Positions 27,292 through 30,619 of a stretch of 64,000 nucleotides of DNA are shown here, one piece after another. The stretch's first letter is position 1. Every line of letters starts with the position of its first letter. The stretch lies in the sequence record MW598459; one strand, written 5' to 3'. Under the pieces are notes generated by a model, which was not told the DNA's origin, did no database searches, and saw only the letters and a program-made list of their open reading frames with translations. Both the position numbers and the translations under genes were made by a program. The DNA is from Escherichia phage vB_EcoM_RZ.

Positions 27292-27320
27292 AAAAAAGGG
27301 CCGAAGCCCTTTTGTTATTT
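27292..27320 (-). terminator. Intrinsic terminator (GGGC-CGAA-GCCC plus T-run) after DNA ligase
   Basis: GC stem with tetraloop followed on the minus strand by TTTTTTAG. Confidence 0.65.
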
Positions 27321-28853
27321 TAACCCGGTCTTTGACCAGTCGCCAAATACATCTTCGAATGTGTCTGCATGGTCTTTATCGAAACGGAACCCTTTGATAA
27401 TCGGCAGGAACAATGCAACCGTATTATCTTTACGAGTTTCGGAAGTCAACCAACCATTACATTCACAGTCAGCAATCATTCCAACCAATTCACCTTTACG
27501 AGCTTTAACCATTAAGGCTTCACGGTCCATTTCATGACGCTCATCAATCGGAATAGAAACCCATTTTTTGGTTTTCTTATCTTTAACTTGAGTTGTGTCT
27601 TTAAAACCAGAACCACAGTTATTTCTAATCTTACCACAAGAAGAACGAAGCACAACACCGCCAATCTTATTCGGGTCTTTATCGTGCTCGTAATATTCAA
27701 TGATTTCCATTGCAATGTCAATTACTTCTTTGAACTTATACAGGTTCTTTGAGCGCTTGTTTTCCCAAATCGATGCCATGTTCTTAAGGATAATACCTTC
27801 AAGACCTTCATCCACATATTTCTTATAGATAACCTTCGCTTCATCGAGATTGTTAACAACATGGTTTTCAATCAGAATCATGCGGTCGAAACCATGTAGC
27901 ACCACGTTATCTGCAATCATCTTTTCCAGAACAGCAAAACGCACATCATATTTCAACGGATTGAGAATCTTAACATCAGAATAGACTTCAATCAGTGGAA
28001 CATAATCCCAAACCTGGAATTTCATGCAAGAAGCTTCTGTTGCAGAAATAGTTCCTTTCAATGATTTGTTTGCCAGACCATTTGAAAAGGTTCTTGATTC
28101 CGCAGTTTCTTGTACAGGGGCAATCTCATCTGAATCGTCAAAAAGGAAGCCCAAACCGTCATTCTGGGGAGCTATTTTCTGTTCATGATATACTAACTCA
28201 CCGTCAATCAAAACGCCCTCAGGATGTCTCTCACGCGCTTCACGGGTAGCTTCAATCAATTCCTTTTTAAGGAGGTCAAGCTTGAGGTATTCGTTGCCAG
28301 CTCGGGATAACAATCGAACATCATCCAACTCATCGCCACGAACTTCTGCAAAACACCGAGCGCCGTCGGCTTTCAATTGCGCAAAGGCCGGGAACTTAAT
28401 GTTCTTGGCAATACCAGCTTCATCATAGGAAGAAGCGAGCATCTGCGGTTGTTCAGGAATTAAACCTTTCCAAACCTTATTTGCAATTGATACGGATGCC
28501 CCGCATTCCAGGTCACGCATCATCACACGGCGAAGAACTTCAACATCTGCTTTTTTACCATCAGCAATATAGCCAGATAATTCCTCGATTGCAGCATTAC
28601 CTGTTAATTTACGAGAGGCTAATGTAAATTCGATAAAGTCAAGCATATCATCAATATTCAACATGCCAAAGCTTTGAGACGTTGTACCAGGTTTAGGCCA
28701 TTTCTTAATATAGAACTGGATGCCTTTGGAATATGTCAAACGATACACACGTTTGAGGGTTTCATTGTCAGAATACGATTCCAGAATAGCTTGTTTCTCT
28801 TTAGTGGAATCGGTTGCAGCAATTTCATTTAAAATATCTAAAATCATAATCAC
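27315..28853 (-). CDS. 30: ATP-dependent DNA ligase gp30
   Basis: 512 aa; extensive identity to remembered T4 DNA ligase including the adenylation motif KADGAR. Confidence 0.95.
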   Translation of the reverse strand: MIMILDILNEIAATDSTKEKQAILESYSDNETLKRVYRLTYSKGIQFYIKKWPKPGTTSQSFGMLNIDDMLDFIEFTLASRKLTGNAAIEELSGYIADGKKADVEVLRRVMMRDLECGASVSIANKVWKGLIPEQPQMLASSYDEAGIAKNIKFPAFAQLKADGARCFAEVRGDELDDVRLLSRAGNEYLKLDLLKKELIEATREARERHPEGVLIDGELVYHEQKIAPQNDGLGFLFDDSDEIAPVQETAESRTFSNGLANKSLKGTISATEASCMKFQVWDYVPLIEVYSDVKILNPLKYDVRFAVLEKMIADNVVLHGFDRMILIENHVVNNLDEAKVIYKKYVDEGLEGIILKNMASIWENKRSKNLYKFKEVIDIAMEIIEYYEHDKDPNKIGGVVLRSSCGKIRNNCGSGFKDTTQVKDKKTKKWVSIPIDERHEMDREALMVKARKGELVGMIADCECNGWLTSETRKDNTVALFLPIIKGFRFDKDHADTFEDVFGDWSKTGLK

Positions 28854-28856
28854 CTC

Positions 28857-29138
28857 TTAGTCGTTGGCTCTATTATATGCCACATCTTCCAAAAGCAAAT
28901 CCAGGCGTTTGTGATAAGTGAACACAAATTTAGTCGACCCATCCGGTTTCATTTTAGTCATGAAGTGAACATAGATAAATCCTTGCTCAACGCATTCACG
29001 CCAAACGGGGTTATCTTTAGCCGGATTAATATCAAACGAGTAATTATGATTCACATGACGAATAAACTGGTTAACATGACCGTAATCCATCGTGGTAGTT
29101 GGACCACGGTCAGAAATAGTATGAACGACAAACATCAA
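28857..29138 (-). CDS. Hypothetical protein (93 aa), 30.1 position
   Basis: ORF with ATGA overlap to the upstream gene. Confidence 0.5.
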   Translation of the reverse strand: MMFVVHTISDRGPTTTMDYGHVNQFIRHVNHNYSFDINPAKDNPVWRECVEQGFIYVHFMTKMKPDGSTKFVFTYHKRLDLLLEDVAYNRAND

Positions 29139-29959
29139 TTACCCCCTTGGCCACCGGTCGGTTGATTGTACCAGTATTCAATACCAGTACCTACACGCTG
29201 GCCATATTGATATGGATATGCTGGATTATATCCAGGAGTCCACGGTTGACCAGGCTGCCAGCCTTGCTGCATTTGTTGTTGAAGGCGTCGAGTTTCACGA
29301 AACAGCTCTTCCAGTTTACGGAGTTCATCTGGAGTGAATTCTGGTTTGACCGGTTCATCTTTGTGTTTCAGTTTAAGCTGTCCAGCAACATCGTCCCAAT
29401 TAAAAACTTTGGAAGCTGTTTTAGGAATAGCATCACGTTCGCCGCGGGCCATCCAATAAACCGGAACCTCAAGAATTTCACTCGCATGGTCGCAATGGTG
29501 TGCAAGGTCATCAATATAACAAATGACATTATATTTGTTTTTTGCCTTCTGAAACAAATCCTCTTTAGAGGCTGTATGACCACACATCATCACTTCTTTA
29601 AACGCTCCAGGGAACAAAGCATTCAGGTTAAATTGACGATTCAAGCGTGCGTCAATGGAATCACCCAGGGCTGTAACAGCCACAAAATCATATTGCTCTT
29701 TGAGGTTATTAATAACCCTTAATGCATCCGCATAAGGAGACAAATAGCGAATAAAGTCTGAACAGTTATATTTTTCAATTAACTGCGCGCCTAACTCTTC
29801 ATCACAATTGAAAAGTTTACCAGGGGTCACAAATTTTTCATCCTGAATCATCTTAAGGATATGTTCCAGGGGTAAATTATATTTTTGGGCGAAATAAGGT
29901 AAGCCAGACTGCCATGACAAACATACGCCATCAATATCTGTTAAAATAACGGGTTTCAT
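29135..29959 (-). CDS. HAD-like hydrolase-fold protein with Q/P/Y/G-rich C-terminal tail
   Basis: 274 aa; N-terminal LTDIDGV (HAD motif I, DxDG), later VTALG and YIDDL motifs; last ~50 residues are low complexity (QQQMQQGWQPGQPWTPGYNPAYPYQYGQ...GGQGGN). Confidence 0.5.
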   Translation of the reverse strand: MKPVILTDIDGVCLSWQSGLPYFAQKYNLPLEHILKMIQDEKFVTPGKLFNCDEELGAQLIEKYNCSDFIRYLSPYADALRVINNLKEQYDFVAVTALGDSIDARLNRQFNLNALFPGAFKEVMMCGHTASKEDLFQKAKNKYNVICYIDDLAHHCDHASEILEVPVYWMARGERDAIPKTASKVFNWDDVAGQLKLKHKDEPVKPEFTPDELRKLEELFRETRRLQQQMQQGWQPGQPWTPGYNPAYPYQYGQRVGTGIEYWYNQPTGGQGGN

Positions 29960-30423
29960 AATGCATCTCTCAATTGGTTAAGTATGTCAATAAATTCTTG
30001 TTCAGTCAATATTGTATCATGAACAGTAAGGTGGCTCGCCATCGAATGCTTTAAAACTTTGCCTTTTGTAGCTTGTAATGCGTCGCGGAATCCTTTGTTT
30101 TGGAGCGCTGCTTCAAAATATGCATTTGTATACAACTCTTTCCATGCTGCAGAGTATCTTGAAAAGGGAATTCCAAGCCAGAAAAGCGTCCCACGGTCCG
30201 CAGCTCTTGCATAAGCTCTTCCACTTTGCTGGGCGGCCAATCCGGACATCCCAAATATACGTTTTTGTTGTTCATGATTTCTCACCTTGCACCCTTGTAG
30301 GAAACCTTCGAGACCTCCAAACTGGATACCCTCCATAACAAAAGGCCATTTGGCAAAGTTACTTAATGCACATGATGGCCACGGGAAATTGCTTCTTATT
30401 TCTAACTCAGACATCTTTGACAC
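29956..30423 (-). CDS. NADAR/YbiA-like domain protein
   Basis: 155 aa; LSNFAKWPF...G..F...E....Q..K pattern resembles the N-terminal motif of E. coli YbiA (FSNFAAWPI...EHYFQAQKF), plus similar downstream helices. Confidence 0.55.
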   Translation of the reverse strand: MSKMSELEIRSNFPWPSCALSNFAKWPFVMEGIQFGGLEGFLQGCKVRNHEQQKRIFGMSGLAAQQSGRAYARAADRGTLFWLGIPFSRYSAAWKELYTNAYFEAALQNKGFRDALQATKGKVLKHSMASHLTVHDTILTEQEFIDILNQLRDAL

Positions 30424-30619
30424 TGATAATATCTACATCAGCCCAATGACCATAACCAGGTAGACGGTCTTTAATAGATAATCCGCCGTCAGATTTCAGC
30501 ATTTTAATTGTTTTAGTATATGGTTCAATATTTCGGGCCCATGGACTTACGTCAGTCACGCGATAAGTAACTTCAACCATTTCTGTTCCCAAAATTTTCT
30601 GAATCAGTTTCTTAAACAC
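30407..30619 (-). CDS. Hypothetical protein (70 aa)
   Basis: Tightly packed early-region ORF on the coding strand. Confidence 0.45.
   Translation of the reverse strand: MFKKLIQKILGTEMVEVTYRVTDVSPWARNIEPYTKTIKMLKSDGGLSIKDRLPGYGHWADVDIISVKDV

What the first reader, a model, noticed from the sequence alone, without database searches (positions are those of the whole stretch)
29135..29959. HAD-like protein with a low-complexity Q/P/Y/G-rich C-terminal tail
The N-terminal ~220 aa carry HAD-type motifs (DIDGV, YIDDL), suggesting a phosphatase or nucleotidase. The last ~50 aa (QQQMQQGWQPGQPWTPGYNPAYPYQYGQ...GGQGGN) are unusual for a phage enzyme and resemble prion-like low-complexity sequence, which could mediate condensation or protein-protein interaction.
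Basis: seen in the sequence. Interest (0 to 1): 0.35.

Follow-up and report, generated by a model that had tools for sequence, protein, structure and literature searches.

The report
T4 gp30.2-type phosphatase with tethered tail
This gene is the counterpart of phage T4's uncharacterised gene 30.2, a probable nucleotide phosphatase whose odd-looking C-terminal tail is real and under selection, and looks like a flexible tether ending in a short conserved docking peptide rather than a prion-like domain.

Summary
The ORF exists as described, on the minus strand (29135-29959, 274 aa). It is the Gaprivervirus ortholog of T4 gene 30.2 (66% identity).

**HAD core.** Residues 1-198 are a confident HAD-superfamily fold with a helical cap. 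All four catalytic motifs are conserved in 108 homologs: D8, D10, K132 and D150/D151 are invariant and T96 nearly so. The closest solved structures are 5'(3')-deoxyribonucleotidases, so a Mg-dependent nucleotide phosphatase is the best reading. No curated family model is passed.

**Tail.**
- It is not a frameshift artefact. The other two frames are full of stops, and tail dN/dS among close relatives is 0.03-0.10.
- It consists of a confident helix (210-232), a disordered proline/aromatic-rich linker, and a 12-residue tip, GTGIEYWYNQPT.
- Among relatives with this tip type, the tip is as conserved as the catalytic core (64% vs 62%), while the linker is not (24%).
- The Q/G-rich "prion-like" composition is peculiar to this lineage.
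- About 45% of homologs have no tail.
- Long tails co-occur with the downstream gene 30.1 (DUF3045), but AlphaFold2 predicted no docking.

**Phenotype.** Published T4 transposon data show 30.2 is dispensable in LB, in M9 and under DarTG1 defence. It is therefore not the missing partner of the neighbouring anti-defence enzyme AdfN.

This is a modestly interesting, ordinary accessory enzyme.

The parts
29135..29959 (-). CDS of the gp30.2 ortholog, 274 aa plus TGA stop
   Evidence: ORF list and sequence. 66% identical to T4 30.2 over residues 1-270, and 99.6% to Escherichia phage EAWsc9. PHROG 420, E = 1e-78.
29366..29959 (-). HAD-superfamily catalytic domain (residues 1-198): Rossmannoid core plus helical cap
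   Evidence: AF2 pLDDT above 90. Foldseek against PDB finds HAD hydrolases and deoxyribonucleotidases at E = 5e-8 to 1e-6. Pfam PF00702 and PF06941 give weak hits in 23 and 19 of 108 homologs.
29924..29938 (-). HAD motif I, D8-I-D10-G-V (nucleophile Asp8, acid/base Asp10)
   Evidence: D8 and D10 are invariant in 108 sequences. D8 aligns with the mutated nucleophile of mouse cdN D12N, PDB 2jao.
29702..29914 (-). Helical cap inserted after motif I (residues 16-86), with conserved W16, F43, Y64 and the block Y64-N-x-S-D-F-I-R-Y-L73
   Evidence: AF2 helices 16-26, 32-40, 46-49, 54-65 and 77-86. Conservation. W16, F43 and Y64 align with F20, F46 and Y67 of mouse cdN.
29672..29674 (-). HAD motif II, Thr96
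   Evidence: Invariant in A1 and at least 90% conserved in A2. Aligned with the Thr of cdN.
29564..29566 (-). HAD motif III, Lys132
   Evidence: Invariant in 108 sequences.
29507..29512 (-). HAD motif IV, Asp150-Asp151 (Mg2+ ligands) within YIDDL
   Evidence: Invariant in 108 sequences.
29264..29332 (-). Tail helix, residues 210-232 (TPDELRKLEELFRETRRLQQQMQ)
   Evidence: Predicted as a helix with pLDDT about 86-94 in both AF2 runs.
29192..29263 (-). Disordered Q/P/G/aromatic-rich linker, residues 233-256
   Evidence: pLDDT 66 falling to below 50. Mean pairwise identity among class-A relatives is 24%; P and aromatic residues are common to all, Q-richness is specific to this lineage.
29156..29191 (-). 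Conserved C-terminal tip, residues 257-268, GTGIEYWYNQPT (class A: [ILV]E[YW][LWY]xx[QR]P[TK])
   Evidence: Found 6-10 residues from the C-terminus in 19 of 108 representatives, including T4 and Klebsiella and Citrobacter phages. Mean pairwise identity 64%, against 62% for the core and 24% for the linker. Unique within the window.
28857..29135 (-). Downstream gene 30.1 (DUF3045, 92 aa). Its ATG overlaps the 30.2 stop (TGATG). It co-occurs with long-tailed 30.2.
   Evidence: Pfam PF11243, E = 2.5e-18. Junction sequence. Co-occurrence table.
29956..30423 (-). Upstream gene 30.3/adfN (NADAR ADP-ribosylglycohydrolase). Its stop overlaps the 30.2 start (ATGA). Context only, not functionally required together.
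   Evidence: Pfam PF08010, E = 4e-64. PMC11825919. HIDEN-SEQ data.
27315..28853 (-). DNA ligase gene 30, the most constant neighbour of 30.2 across T4-like phages
   Evidence: Pfam PF01068. The ligase starts within 600 bp downstream of 30.2 in 65 of 75 complete loci.

Best explanation
The ORF encodes the ortholog of phage T4 gp30.2. It is a Mg2+-dependent HAD-superfamily phosphomonoesterase whose capped fold most resembles 5'(3')-deoxyribonucleotidases. It most likely dephosphorylates a nucleoside monophosphate or a similar small phosphoester.

The mechanism is inferred from the family. Asp8 attacks the phosphate to form an aspartyl-phosphate. Asp10 acts as general acid/base. Thr96 and Lys132 hold the phosphate, and Asp150/Asp151 hold Mg2+. 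Conserved aromatic cap residues (W16, F43, Y64) would sandwich the base or sugar.

The C-terminal 76 residues are a lineage-variable appendage made of an ordered helix, a disordered proline/aromatic-rich spacer and a conserved 12-residue tip. I read this as a flexible tether that docks the enzyme, through the tip, onto a partner. The partner is probably phage-encoded and still unidentified; gp30.1 is the leading but unproven candidate.

Shown: orthology, fold, catalytic motifs, that the tail is real and under selection, tip conservation, and dispensability in T4. Inferred: the substrate class, the docking role of the tip, and the partner.
For: Orthology:
- tblastn finds 1437 phage records, including T4 30.2 at 66% identity.
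- PHROG 420, E = 1e-78.

Fold and motifs:
- AF2 pLDDT is above 90 over residues 1-200.
- Foldseek against PDB hits HAD hydrolases at E about 5e-8. Mouse and human cdN and mdN give rmsd 4.3-4.9 and TM 0.63-0.68. The S. epidermidis deoxyribonucleotidase-like protein 3bwv gives TM 0.65-0.70.
- BFVD neighbours are annotated as 5' nucleotidase or PNK phosphatase.
- D8, D10, K132, D150 and D151 are invariant, and T96 is at least 90% conserved, in 108 homologs.
- HMMER aligns D8/D10/W16/F43/Y64/T96 with the nucleophile, acid/base, F20, F46, Y67 and Thr of mouse cdN.
- Intracellular 5'-nucleotidases are Mg-dependent HAD enzymes with enzyme-specific caps and rely on pi-stacking with the base (PMC3946280).

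The tail is real and constrained:
- The alternative frames are closed.
- Tail dN/dS is 0.03-0.10 among Gaprivervirus relatives, against 0.02-0.05 for the core.

Tether plus tip:
- pLDDT falls from about 66 to below 50 across residues 233-274 (below 50 for 249-274).
- Pairwise identity is 24% for the linker against 64% for the tip and 62% for the core.
- Three tip classes all sit within 10 residues of the C-terminus.
- E. coli phages of different genera carry different tips or none, which argues for a co-evolving phage partner rather than a fixed host target.
Against: - No curated family model (Pfam, NCBIfam) is passed by the window protein. Sequence similarity to NT5C is marginal, E = 0.29-0.37. 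The substrate is therefore unproven.
- About 45% of homolog representatives work without any tail, so the tail is not needed for catalysis.
- AF2 predicted no docking of the tip on the core or on gp30.1.
- Some T4-type variants have a degenerate tip, GDAGYFNRLT.
- T4 30.2 transposon mutants show no fitness defect in LB, in M9 or under DarTG1, so no phenotype anchors the model.
Confidence: 0.6

Rival explanations
1. The tail is a prion-like low-complexity domain that drives self-association or condensation of the enzyme.
For: The last 50 residues are 78% Q/P/Y/G/W/N and of low entropy. The region is predicted disordered. The composition resembles the G/Q/P-rich disordered linker of E. coli SSB, which is reported to phase-separate (my own knowledge, not tested here).
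Against: Q/G-richness is not conserved: 9 Q in this linker against 0-5 in the other class-A linkers, and T4's tail is aromatic/N/H/T-rich. The stretch is only about 45 residues, with about 28% Q+N. Within genera, selection acts on the exact sequence (dN/dS 0.03-0.10), and a specific 12-mer is conserved across genera. That is typical of a specific interface rather than a purely compositional domain. Many orthologs lack a tail.
Confidence: 0.1
2. The tail, through its tip, binds the product of the downstream, translationally coupled gene 30.1 (DUF3045), forming a two-protein module.
For: The 30.2 stop overlaps the 30.1 start (TGATG). In 75 loci, long tail and 30.1 are both present in 24 and both absent in 41; only 3 and 7 loci are discordant (Fisher p = 2e-10, uncorrected for phylogeny). 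One nested lineage (L027/L028) lost both. P0021 is a 30.2-core::30.1 fusion (E = 4e-30). The Yersinia phiR1-RT-type proteins carry a weakly 30.1-like C-terminal domain (E = 0.003-0.013).
Against: Tail and 30.1 are both confined to one clade, so the correlation rests on few independent events. L010-L015 and L020 keep 30.1 but lack the long tail. The same tip class A occurs with two very different 30.1 subtypes, while a T-even-like 30.1 goes with tip class B. AF2 of joined gp30.1+gp30.2 left the tail at pLDDT 35-39. That is a weak test: unpaired alignment, monomer model. P0021 comes from a 1.4-kb assembly contig and may be an artefact.
Confidence: 0.2
3. gp30.2 is a DNA-end 3'-phosphatase that prepares nicks for the adjacent DNA ligase.
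For: The ligase gene starts within 600 bp downstream of 30.2 in 65 of 75 loci across very divergent T4-like phages. There is a weak PHROG hit to polynucleotide kinase (E = 0.004). PNK phosphatase domains appear among the BFVD structural neighbours.
Against: The protein has a closed helical cap of about 70 residues between motifs I and II, like small-molecule HAD phosphatases. Polynucleotide 3'-phosphatases are capless (established knowledge of HAD cap classes). The best structural matches are nucleotidases. T4 already has PseT. Gene order in T4-like genomes is broadly syntenic, so adjacency is weak evidence. Ligase is essential in T4 but 30.2 is fully dispensable.
Confidence: 0.08
4. gp30.2 is the 'additional T-even protein' that the upstream anti-DarTG1 enzyme AdfN (gp30.3) was suggested to need.
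For: The 30.3 stop overlaps the 30.2 start. PMC11825919 proposes that AdfN may require another T-even protein.
Against: In the T4 HIDEN-SEQ library under DarTG1, 30.2 insertions are not depleted (log2FC -0.12, p = 0.61), while 30.3 drops by log2FC -7.25. The NADAR gene is adjacent to 30.2 in only 15 of 75 loci. Class-A tails occur in Klebsiella-type phages that have no NADAR gene within the 6 kb of flanking sequence examined.
Confidence: 0.02
5. The aromatic-rich tail and tip act as a degradation or turnover signal that limits the lifetime of a potentially harmful nucleotidase.
For: The conserved motif lies at the extreme C-terminus. The tail is rich in aromatic residues and disordered. There is no direct test; this is inference only.
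Against: There is no similarity to known C-terminal degrons. Tail-less orthologs are common. The tip differs among phages of the same host.
Confidence: 0.07

Closest known systems
Bacteriophage T4 gene 30.2 product (hypothetical protein, 278 aa)
   Same: Ortholog: 66% identity over residues 1-270 and 84% in the core. Same gene order, 30.3-30.2-30.1-30. Same architecture of core, helix, linker and tip (GGVEYLYNRPT/GGIEYLYNRPT).
   Different: The linker is only 24% identical. It is Q/G/P-rich here and aromatic/N/H/T-rich in T4. The residues after the tip differ: GGQGGN here, SGDNIFQGAF in T4.
Cytosolic and mitochondrial 5'(3')-deoxyribonucleotidases (cdN/NT5C, mdN/NT5M; Pfam PF06941)
   Same: HAD core with a helical cap inserted after motif I. 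The DxDGV motif I, Thr, Lys and DD motifs are shared. Conserved aromatic residues lie at aligned cap positions. These are among the top Foldseek hits, with TM 0.63-0.68.
   Different: Sequence similarity is below family thresholds (E = 0.29; no Pfam hit for this protein). The cap carries its own invariant block, YNxSDFIRYL. cdN and mdN have no C-terminal helix-linker-tip extension.
E. coli SSB-type organisation: folded domain, disordered linker, conserved C-terminal tip (analogy only)
   Same: A folded domain is followed by a compositionally biased (G/Q/P-rich here), poorly conserved disordered linker. It ends in a short conserved peptide near the C-terminus. The SSB side of the comparison is my own knowledge.
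   Different: There is no sequence relationship. The tip is not acidic (SSB ends in DDDIPF). The partner is unknown. The enzyme domain is a phosphatase, not an OB fold.
T4 PseT polynucleotide kinase/3'-phosphatase (HAD phosphatase domain)
   Same: A phage HAD-type DxDxT phosphatase. There is a weak profile hit (PHROG 415, E = 0.004), and it appears among the structural neighbours.
   Different: gp30.2 has a cap domain and no kinase domain. The structural matches are weaker than to nucleotidases.

Membership tests
HAD superfamily (phosphatase type) | Rossmannoid alpha/beta core fold | tested here: met
   AF2 pLDDT is above 90 for residues 1-200. 106 PDB matches at E <= 0.001, and every one of the 50 best listed is a HAD-type enzyme.
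HAD superfamily (phosphatase type) | Motif I DxDx[TV] with both aspartates | tested here: met
   D8-I-D10-G-V. D8 and D10 are invariant in 108 homologs.
HAD superfamily (phosphatase type) | Motif II Ser/Thr, motif III Lys/Arg, motif IV acidic pair | tested here: met
   T96 (at least 90% conserved), K132 (invariant), D150/D151 (invariant).
HAD superfamily (phosphatase type) | Curated profile match (Pfam PF00702/PF13419 at gathering score) | tested here: not met
   No Pfam hit for the window protein even at E <= 1. Only sub-threshold hits in 23 and 10 of 108 homologs. NCBIfam gives none.
HAD superfamily (phosphatase type) | Mg2+-dependent phosphoryl transfer through an aspartyl-phosphate | not testable with these tools
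   Needs an enzyme assay.
5'(3')-deoxyribonucleotidase family (NT5C, PF06941) | Profile match at the Pfam gathering score | tested here: not met
   No hit for this protein. 19 of 108 homologs hit, with best E = 0.002. PDB profile search finds 2jao at E = 0.37.
5'(3')-deoxyribonucleotidase family (NT5C, PF06941) | Helical C1-type cap and overall structural similarity | tested here: met
   Helices at 16-65 between motifs I and II. 2jao, 2i7d, 4yih, 1q92, 4mum and 3bwv give TM (target-normalised) 0.63-0.70.
5'(3')-deoxyribonucleotidase family (NT5C, PF06941) | Aromatic cap residues that contact the nucleoside | tested here: inconclusive
   W16, F43 and Y64 align with F20, F46 and Y67 of mouse cdN in a weak HMMER alignment. 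The roles of the cdN residues come from my recollection of Wallden et al. 2007 and were not verified here.
5'(3')-deoxyribonucleotidase family (NT5C, PF06941) | dNMP phosphatase activity | not testable with these tools
   Needs an enzyme assay.
Prion-like / condensate-forming low-complexity domain | Q/N-rich, low-complexity, disordered stretch of sufficient length | tested here: inconclusive
   Disordered (pLDDT below 50) and low in entropy. However, it is only about 45 residues with Q+N about 28%. No PLAAC-type scorer was available.
Prion-like / condensate-forming low-complexity domain | Compositional bias conserved among orthologs | tested here: not met
   The Q count in the linker is 9 here against 0-5 in 13 other class-A representatives. 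About 45% of homologs have no tail.
Disordered tether with a short linear docking motif | Poorly conserved disordered linker of variable length | tested here: met
   Linker 44-65 residues long, 24% mean identity, pLDDT below 66.
Disordered tether with a short linear docking motif | Short motif conserved well above its flanks | tested here: met
   The 12-residue tip has 64% mean identity against 24% for the linker. It lies 6-10 residues from the C-terminus in 19 representatives.
Disordered tether with a short linear docking motif | Identified binding partner | tested here: inconclusive
   gp30.1 co-occurs with the tail, but AF2 shows no docking. AdfN is excluded by published genetics.

The most novel reading that the evidence does not exclude
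The helix-linker-tip tail could be a viral version of the 'disordered linker plus conserved tip' module used by hub proteins such as SSB. It would recruit a nucleotide phosphatase to a phage replication or repair hub, either through gp30.1 next to DNA ligase or by partitioning into a condensate. The tip classes would then be lineage-specific adaptations to a co-evolving partner.
Probability: 0.12. Interest if true: 0.55.

Novelty: new member of a known kind. Interest (0 to 1): 0.3.

Why it matters
Gene 30.2 is conserved next to DNA ligase in most T4-like phages examined, yet has no assigned function. No paper in the library searched mentions gp30.2.

Assigning it to the capped HAD nucleotidase-like phosphatases, with all catalytic residues intact, gives a concrete enzymatic hypothesis for a quasi-core T4-like gene.

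Separating the tail into a variable spacer and a conserved tip, and noting its co-occurrence with gene 30.1, gives testable handles: tip mutants and pull-downs.

It also removes two tempting but wrong readings. The tail is not a frameshift artefact, and gp30.2 is not a required AdfN cofactor.

The practical impact is modest, because T4 mutants show no phenotype under the conditions tested so far.

Tried and rejected
1. **Frameshift artefact.** Rejected. The other frames are closed. The tail is conserved in-frame in relatives. Tail dN/dS is 0.03-0.10.
2. **AdfN partner.** Rejected by published T4 transposon data and by the lack of a consistent NADAR neighbour.
3. **Tip docking on the core or on gp30.1.**
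   - AF2 of the monomer and of the joined window proteins gp30.1+gp30.2 both left the tail at low confidence. This is a negative result from a weak test.
   - Building a block alignment with MAFFT took several attempts. It only worked with 12 gp30.2 homologs, which lowered confidence for the HAD part.
4. **A second protein in the window carrying the tip motif**, which would suggest a shared docking site. None was found.
5. **Curated family assignment.** Pfam and NCBIfam give nothing for this protein. The PDB sequence search is marginal.
6. **Literature.**
   - 'gp30.2' and 'DUF3045' returned no papers.
   - T4, 30.2 and haloacid dehalogenase together returned none.
   - The T4 genome review PMC150520 is not held.
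   - The main text of the CRISPRi-ART paper does not mention 30.2.
7. **Tip class against 30.1 subtype.** No co-variation was seen.
8. **MotA box upstream of 30.2.** The -10 element of the T4 middle promoter PM30.2 is conserved, but no clear MotA box was found.
Full report
**Observation**

The window has an ORF at 29135..29959 on the minus strand, 274 aa, starting with ATG and ending with TGA. DIDGV lies at residues 8-12 and YIDDL at 148-152. The last 50 residues are 78% Q/P/Y/G/W/N, with sequence entropy clearly below that of the rest of the protein. The description is therefore correct, apart from the strand and the length of the core, which is about 198 aa rather than 220. The two other reading frames over the tail are full of stop codons.

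**Identity and context**

- tblastn against phage genomes finds 1437 records. The best is Escherichia phage EAWsc9 (Gaprivervirus, 99.6%), and T4 30.2 matches at 66% over residues 1-270.
- PHROGs places the protein in phrog_420, 'unknown function', at E = 1e-78.
- The minus-strand neighbours are 30.3/adfN (PF08010, NADAR; its stop overlaps the 30.2 start), 30.1 (DUF3045; its start overlaps the 30.2 stop as TGATG) and DNA ligase gene 30.
- In 75 complete related loci from IMG/VR, the ligase begins within 600 bp downstream of 30.2 in 65. A NADAR gene is directly upstream in only 15.

**The catalytic domain**

- No Pfam or NCBIfam model is passed by this protein. Sequence searches of the PDB give only a marginal match to mouse cytosolic 5'(3')-deoxyribonucleotidase (E = 0.29-0.37).
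- An alignment of 108 homologs shows D8, D10, K132, D150 and D151 invariant and T96 nearly so. These are the four HAD motifs.
- The alignment also shows a strongly conserved cap block, Y64-N-x-S-D-F-I-R-Y-L73 (S67 and L73 invariant; Y64, N65, F69, I70 and Y72 at least 90% conserved), and an invariant W16.
- AlphaFold2 with this alignment gives pLDDT above 90 for residues 1-200, with a helical insertion after motif I.
- Foldseek against the PDB returns HAD enzymes. The hits include mouse and human cdN and human mdN (TM 0.63-0.68, rmsd 4.3-4.9 Å) and a staphylococcal deoxyribonucleotidase-like protein (TM 0.65-0.70).
- Viral neighbours beyond the orthologs are annotated as 5' nucleotidases or PNK phosphatases.
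- Scanned individually, 23 of 108 homologs touch PF00702 and 19 touch PF06941 (NT5C) below threshold.
- In the HMMER alignment to 2jao, D8 falls on the mutated nucleophile (D12N), D10 on D14, and W16, F43 and Y64 on F20, F46 and Y67. By my recollection of Walldén et al. 2007, those cdN residues line the nucleoside pocket. That role was not verified here.
- PMC3946280 confirms that intracellular 5'-nucleotidases are Mg-dependent HAD enzymes with specific caps and depend on pi-stacking.

I conclude that this is an active HAD phosphomonoesterase. A nucleoside-monophosphate-like substrate is the best guess, but it is only a guess.

**The tail**

Among 108 representatives, 49 have fewer than 20 residues after the core. 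The rest carry extensions of 20 to 130 residues.

In the window protein the extension has three parts:
- a helix, residues 210-232, with pLDDT about 90 in two independent AF2 runs;
- a linker, residues 233-256, with low confidence;
- a tip, residues 257-268, GTGIEYWYNQPT, followed by six residues.

The tip pattern [ILV]E[YW][LWY]xx[QR]P[TK] recurs 6-10 residues from the C-terminus in 19 representatives. These include T4 (GGVEYLYNRPT) and Klebsiella- and Citrobacter-phage types (GTGIEYLNRQPT). Other lineages have different terminal motifs, LRAYY and LLNKVTAND.

For 14 class-A representatives, mean pairwise identity is 62% in the core, 24% in the linker and 64% in the tip. Against T4 the figures are 84%, 24% and 58%.

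Proline and aromatic residues are common to all the linkers. Q-richness is peculiar to this lineage, with 9 Q against 0-5.

Among four Gaprivervirus relatives the tail has 14-16 synonymous but only 2-7 non-synonymous differences. That gives dN/dS of 0.03-0.10, against 0.02-0.05 in the core. The tail is therefore translated and constrained. Between genera it has diverged much faster than the core: dN is 0.73 against 0.13 between the window and T4.

This pattern fits a flexible tether with a specific terminal interface better than a purely compositional, prion-like domain.

**Looking for the partner**

*AdfN.* PMC11825919 suggests that AdfN(gp30.3) may need another T-even protein, and 30.2 is translationally coupled to it. 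Published HIDEN-SEQ data for T4 contradict this idea:
- 30.2 has 72 of 72 TA sites disrupted and is classed as non-essential.
- Under DarTG1 its insertions are unchanged (log2FC -0.12, p = 0.61), while 30.3 falls by log2FC -7.25.
- LB versus M9 is also neutral (-0.10, p = 0.61).
- Class-A tails also occur in phages with no NADAR gene within the 6 kb of flank examined.

This idea is refuted.

*gp30.1.* Evidence in favour:
- An HMM of gp30.1 finds the gene directly downstream of 30.2 in 34 loci.
- Of the 75 complete loci, 24 have both a long tail and 30.1 and 41 have neither. Three have only the tail and seven only 30.1 (Fisher p = 2e-10, not corrected for phylogeny).
- One nested lineage lost both (L027/L028).
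- One homolog (P0021) is a clear 30.2::30.1 fusion. The Yersinia phiR1-RT type has a weakly 30.1-like C-terminal domain.

Evidence against:
- Both traits are confined to one clade.
- L010-L015 and L020 keep 30.1 without a long tail. L010-L015 do end in a tip-like AVEWIARG.
- Tip class does not track 30.1 subtype.
- AF2 of the joined window proteins folded gp30.1 confidently (pLDDT about 75-91) but left the tail at 35-39.

This AF2 test is weak, because the alignment was unpaired, the gp30.2 part was shallow and a monomer model was used. The hypothesis stays open at low probability.

*Shared docking site.* No other ORF in the window carries the tip.

*Host versus phage partner.* E. coli phages of different genera carry different tips or none. 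That argues against a fixed host target.

**Comparison with what is known**

The gene is the ortholog of T4 30.2, a known but uncharacterised ORF. A few database records already call homologs 'HAD-superfamily hydrolase' or '5'(3')-deoxyribonucleotidase'. No paper in the searchable library mentions gp30.2 or DUF3045.

It meets the structural and motif definition of the HAD superfamily. It does not meet any curated sequence-profile threshold, including NT5C. I therefore describe it as working like a capped HAD nucleotidase, without filing it as a member of the NT5C family.

The tail's organisation resembles the 'linker plus tip' design of SSB only by analogy.

**Verdict**

The HAD interpretation is supported. 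The prion-like interpretation is not supported as a conserved property. A tether-and-tip reading is preferred but unproven.

This is a new, better-described member of a known kind of enzyme, of modest interest. Its main value is a set of concrete, testable hypotheses for a widely conserved T4-like accessory gene.

Noticed in passing
window 29956-30423 (-): A full-length ortholog of T4 30.3/AdfN (PF08010, E = 4e-64), the NADAR ADP-ribosylglycohydrolase that counters DarTG1. It extends to the end of the family profile (positions 2-138 of 138). RB69 carries a truncated allele that gives only reduced activity. This phage is therefore predicted to resist DarTG1.
   Followed up: partly
window 28857-29135 (-): gp30.1 (DUF3045, 92 aa) folds confidently in AF2 as beta-beta-alpha-alpha-beta-beta-alpha (pLDDT about 75-91). 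Only 33 cluster representatives were found, and all the named ones are T4-like phages. Y74 is invariant and G52, L81 and E84 nearly so. Its function is unknown, and it is non-essential in T4 (21 of 21 TA sites disrupted).
   Followed up: partly
P0021; P0062/P0064; L035:6001-6939 and L073: Possible natural fusions of the 30.2 core with a 30.1-like domain. P0021 is clear (E = 4e-30) but comes from a 1.4-kb assembly. The Yersinia phiR1-RT/TG1-type proteins of 312-328 aa are weak matches (E = 0.003-0.013).
   Followed up: partly
L008:3464-4318 and L009:6001-6849 (T4-like IMG/VR genomes): Some T4-type 30.2 genes have a degenerate tip, GDAGYFNRLT instead of GGIEYLYNRPT, while keeping the terminal SGDNIFQGAF. 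Tail dN/dS rises to 0.23-0.35 in these comparisons.
   Followed up: no
L010-L015 (212-aa forms): A lineage has lost the helix and linker but keeps gene 30.1. Its protein ends in ...NNAAVEWIARG, which resembles the class-A tip core ([IV]E[YW][ILW]). It may be a minimal tip attached directly to the core.
   Followed up: no
window about 29995-30015 (-), inside the 3' end of 30.3: The -10 element of the T4 middle promoter PM30.2 (GATGATACAAT) is conserved (CATGATACAAT). No clear MotA box (TGCTT) is seen upstream in the window.
   Followed up: partly
T4 genes 30.4 and 30.3 (HIDEN-SEQ, bioRxiv 10.1101/2025.11.20.689424, Data S6): Under DarTG1 the only two significant T4 genes are 30.3 (log2FC -7.25) and the upstream 30.4 (log2FC -1.79, adjusted p = 0.014). 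The 30.4 effect may be polarity on 30.3 or a real contribution. The window has a 70-aa ORF at the corresponding position (30407-30619, -).
   Followed up: no
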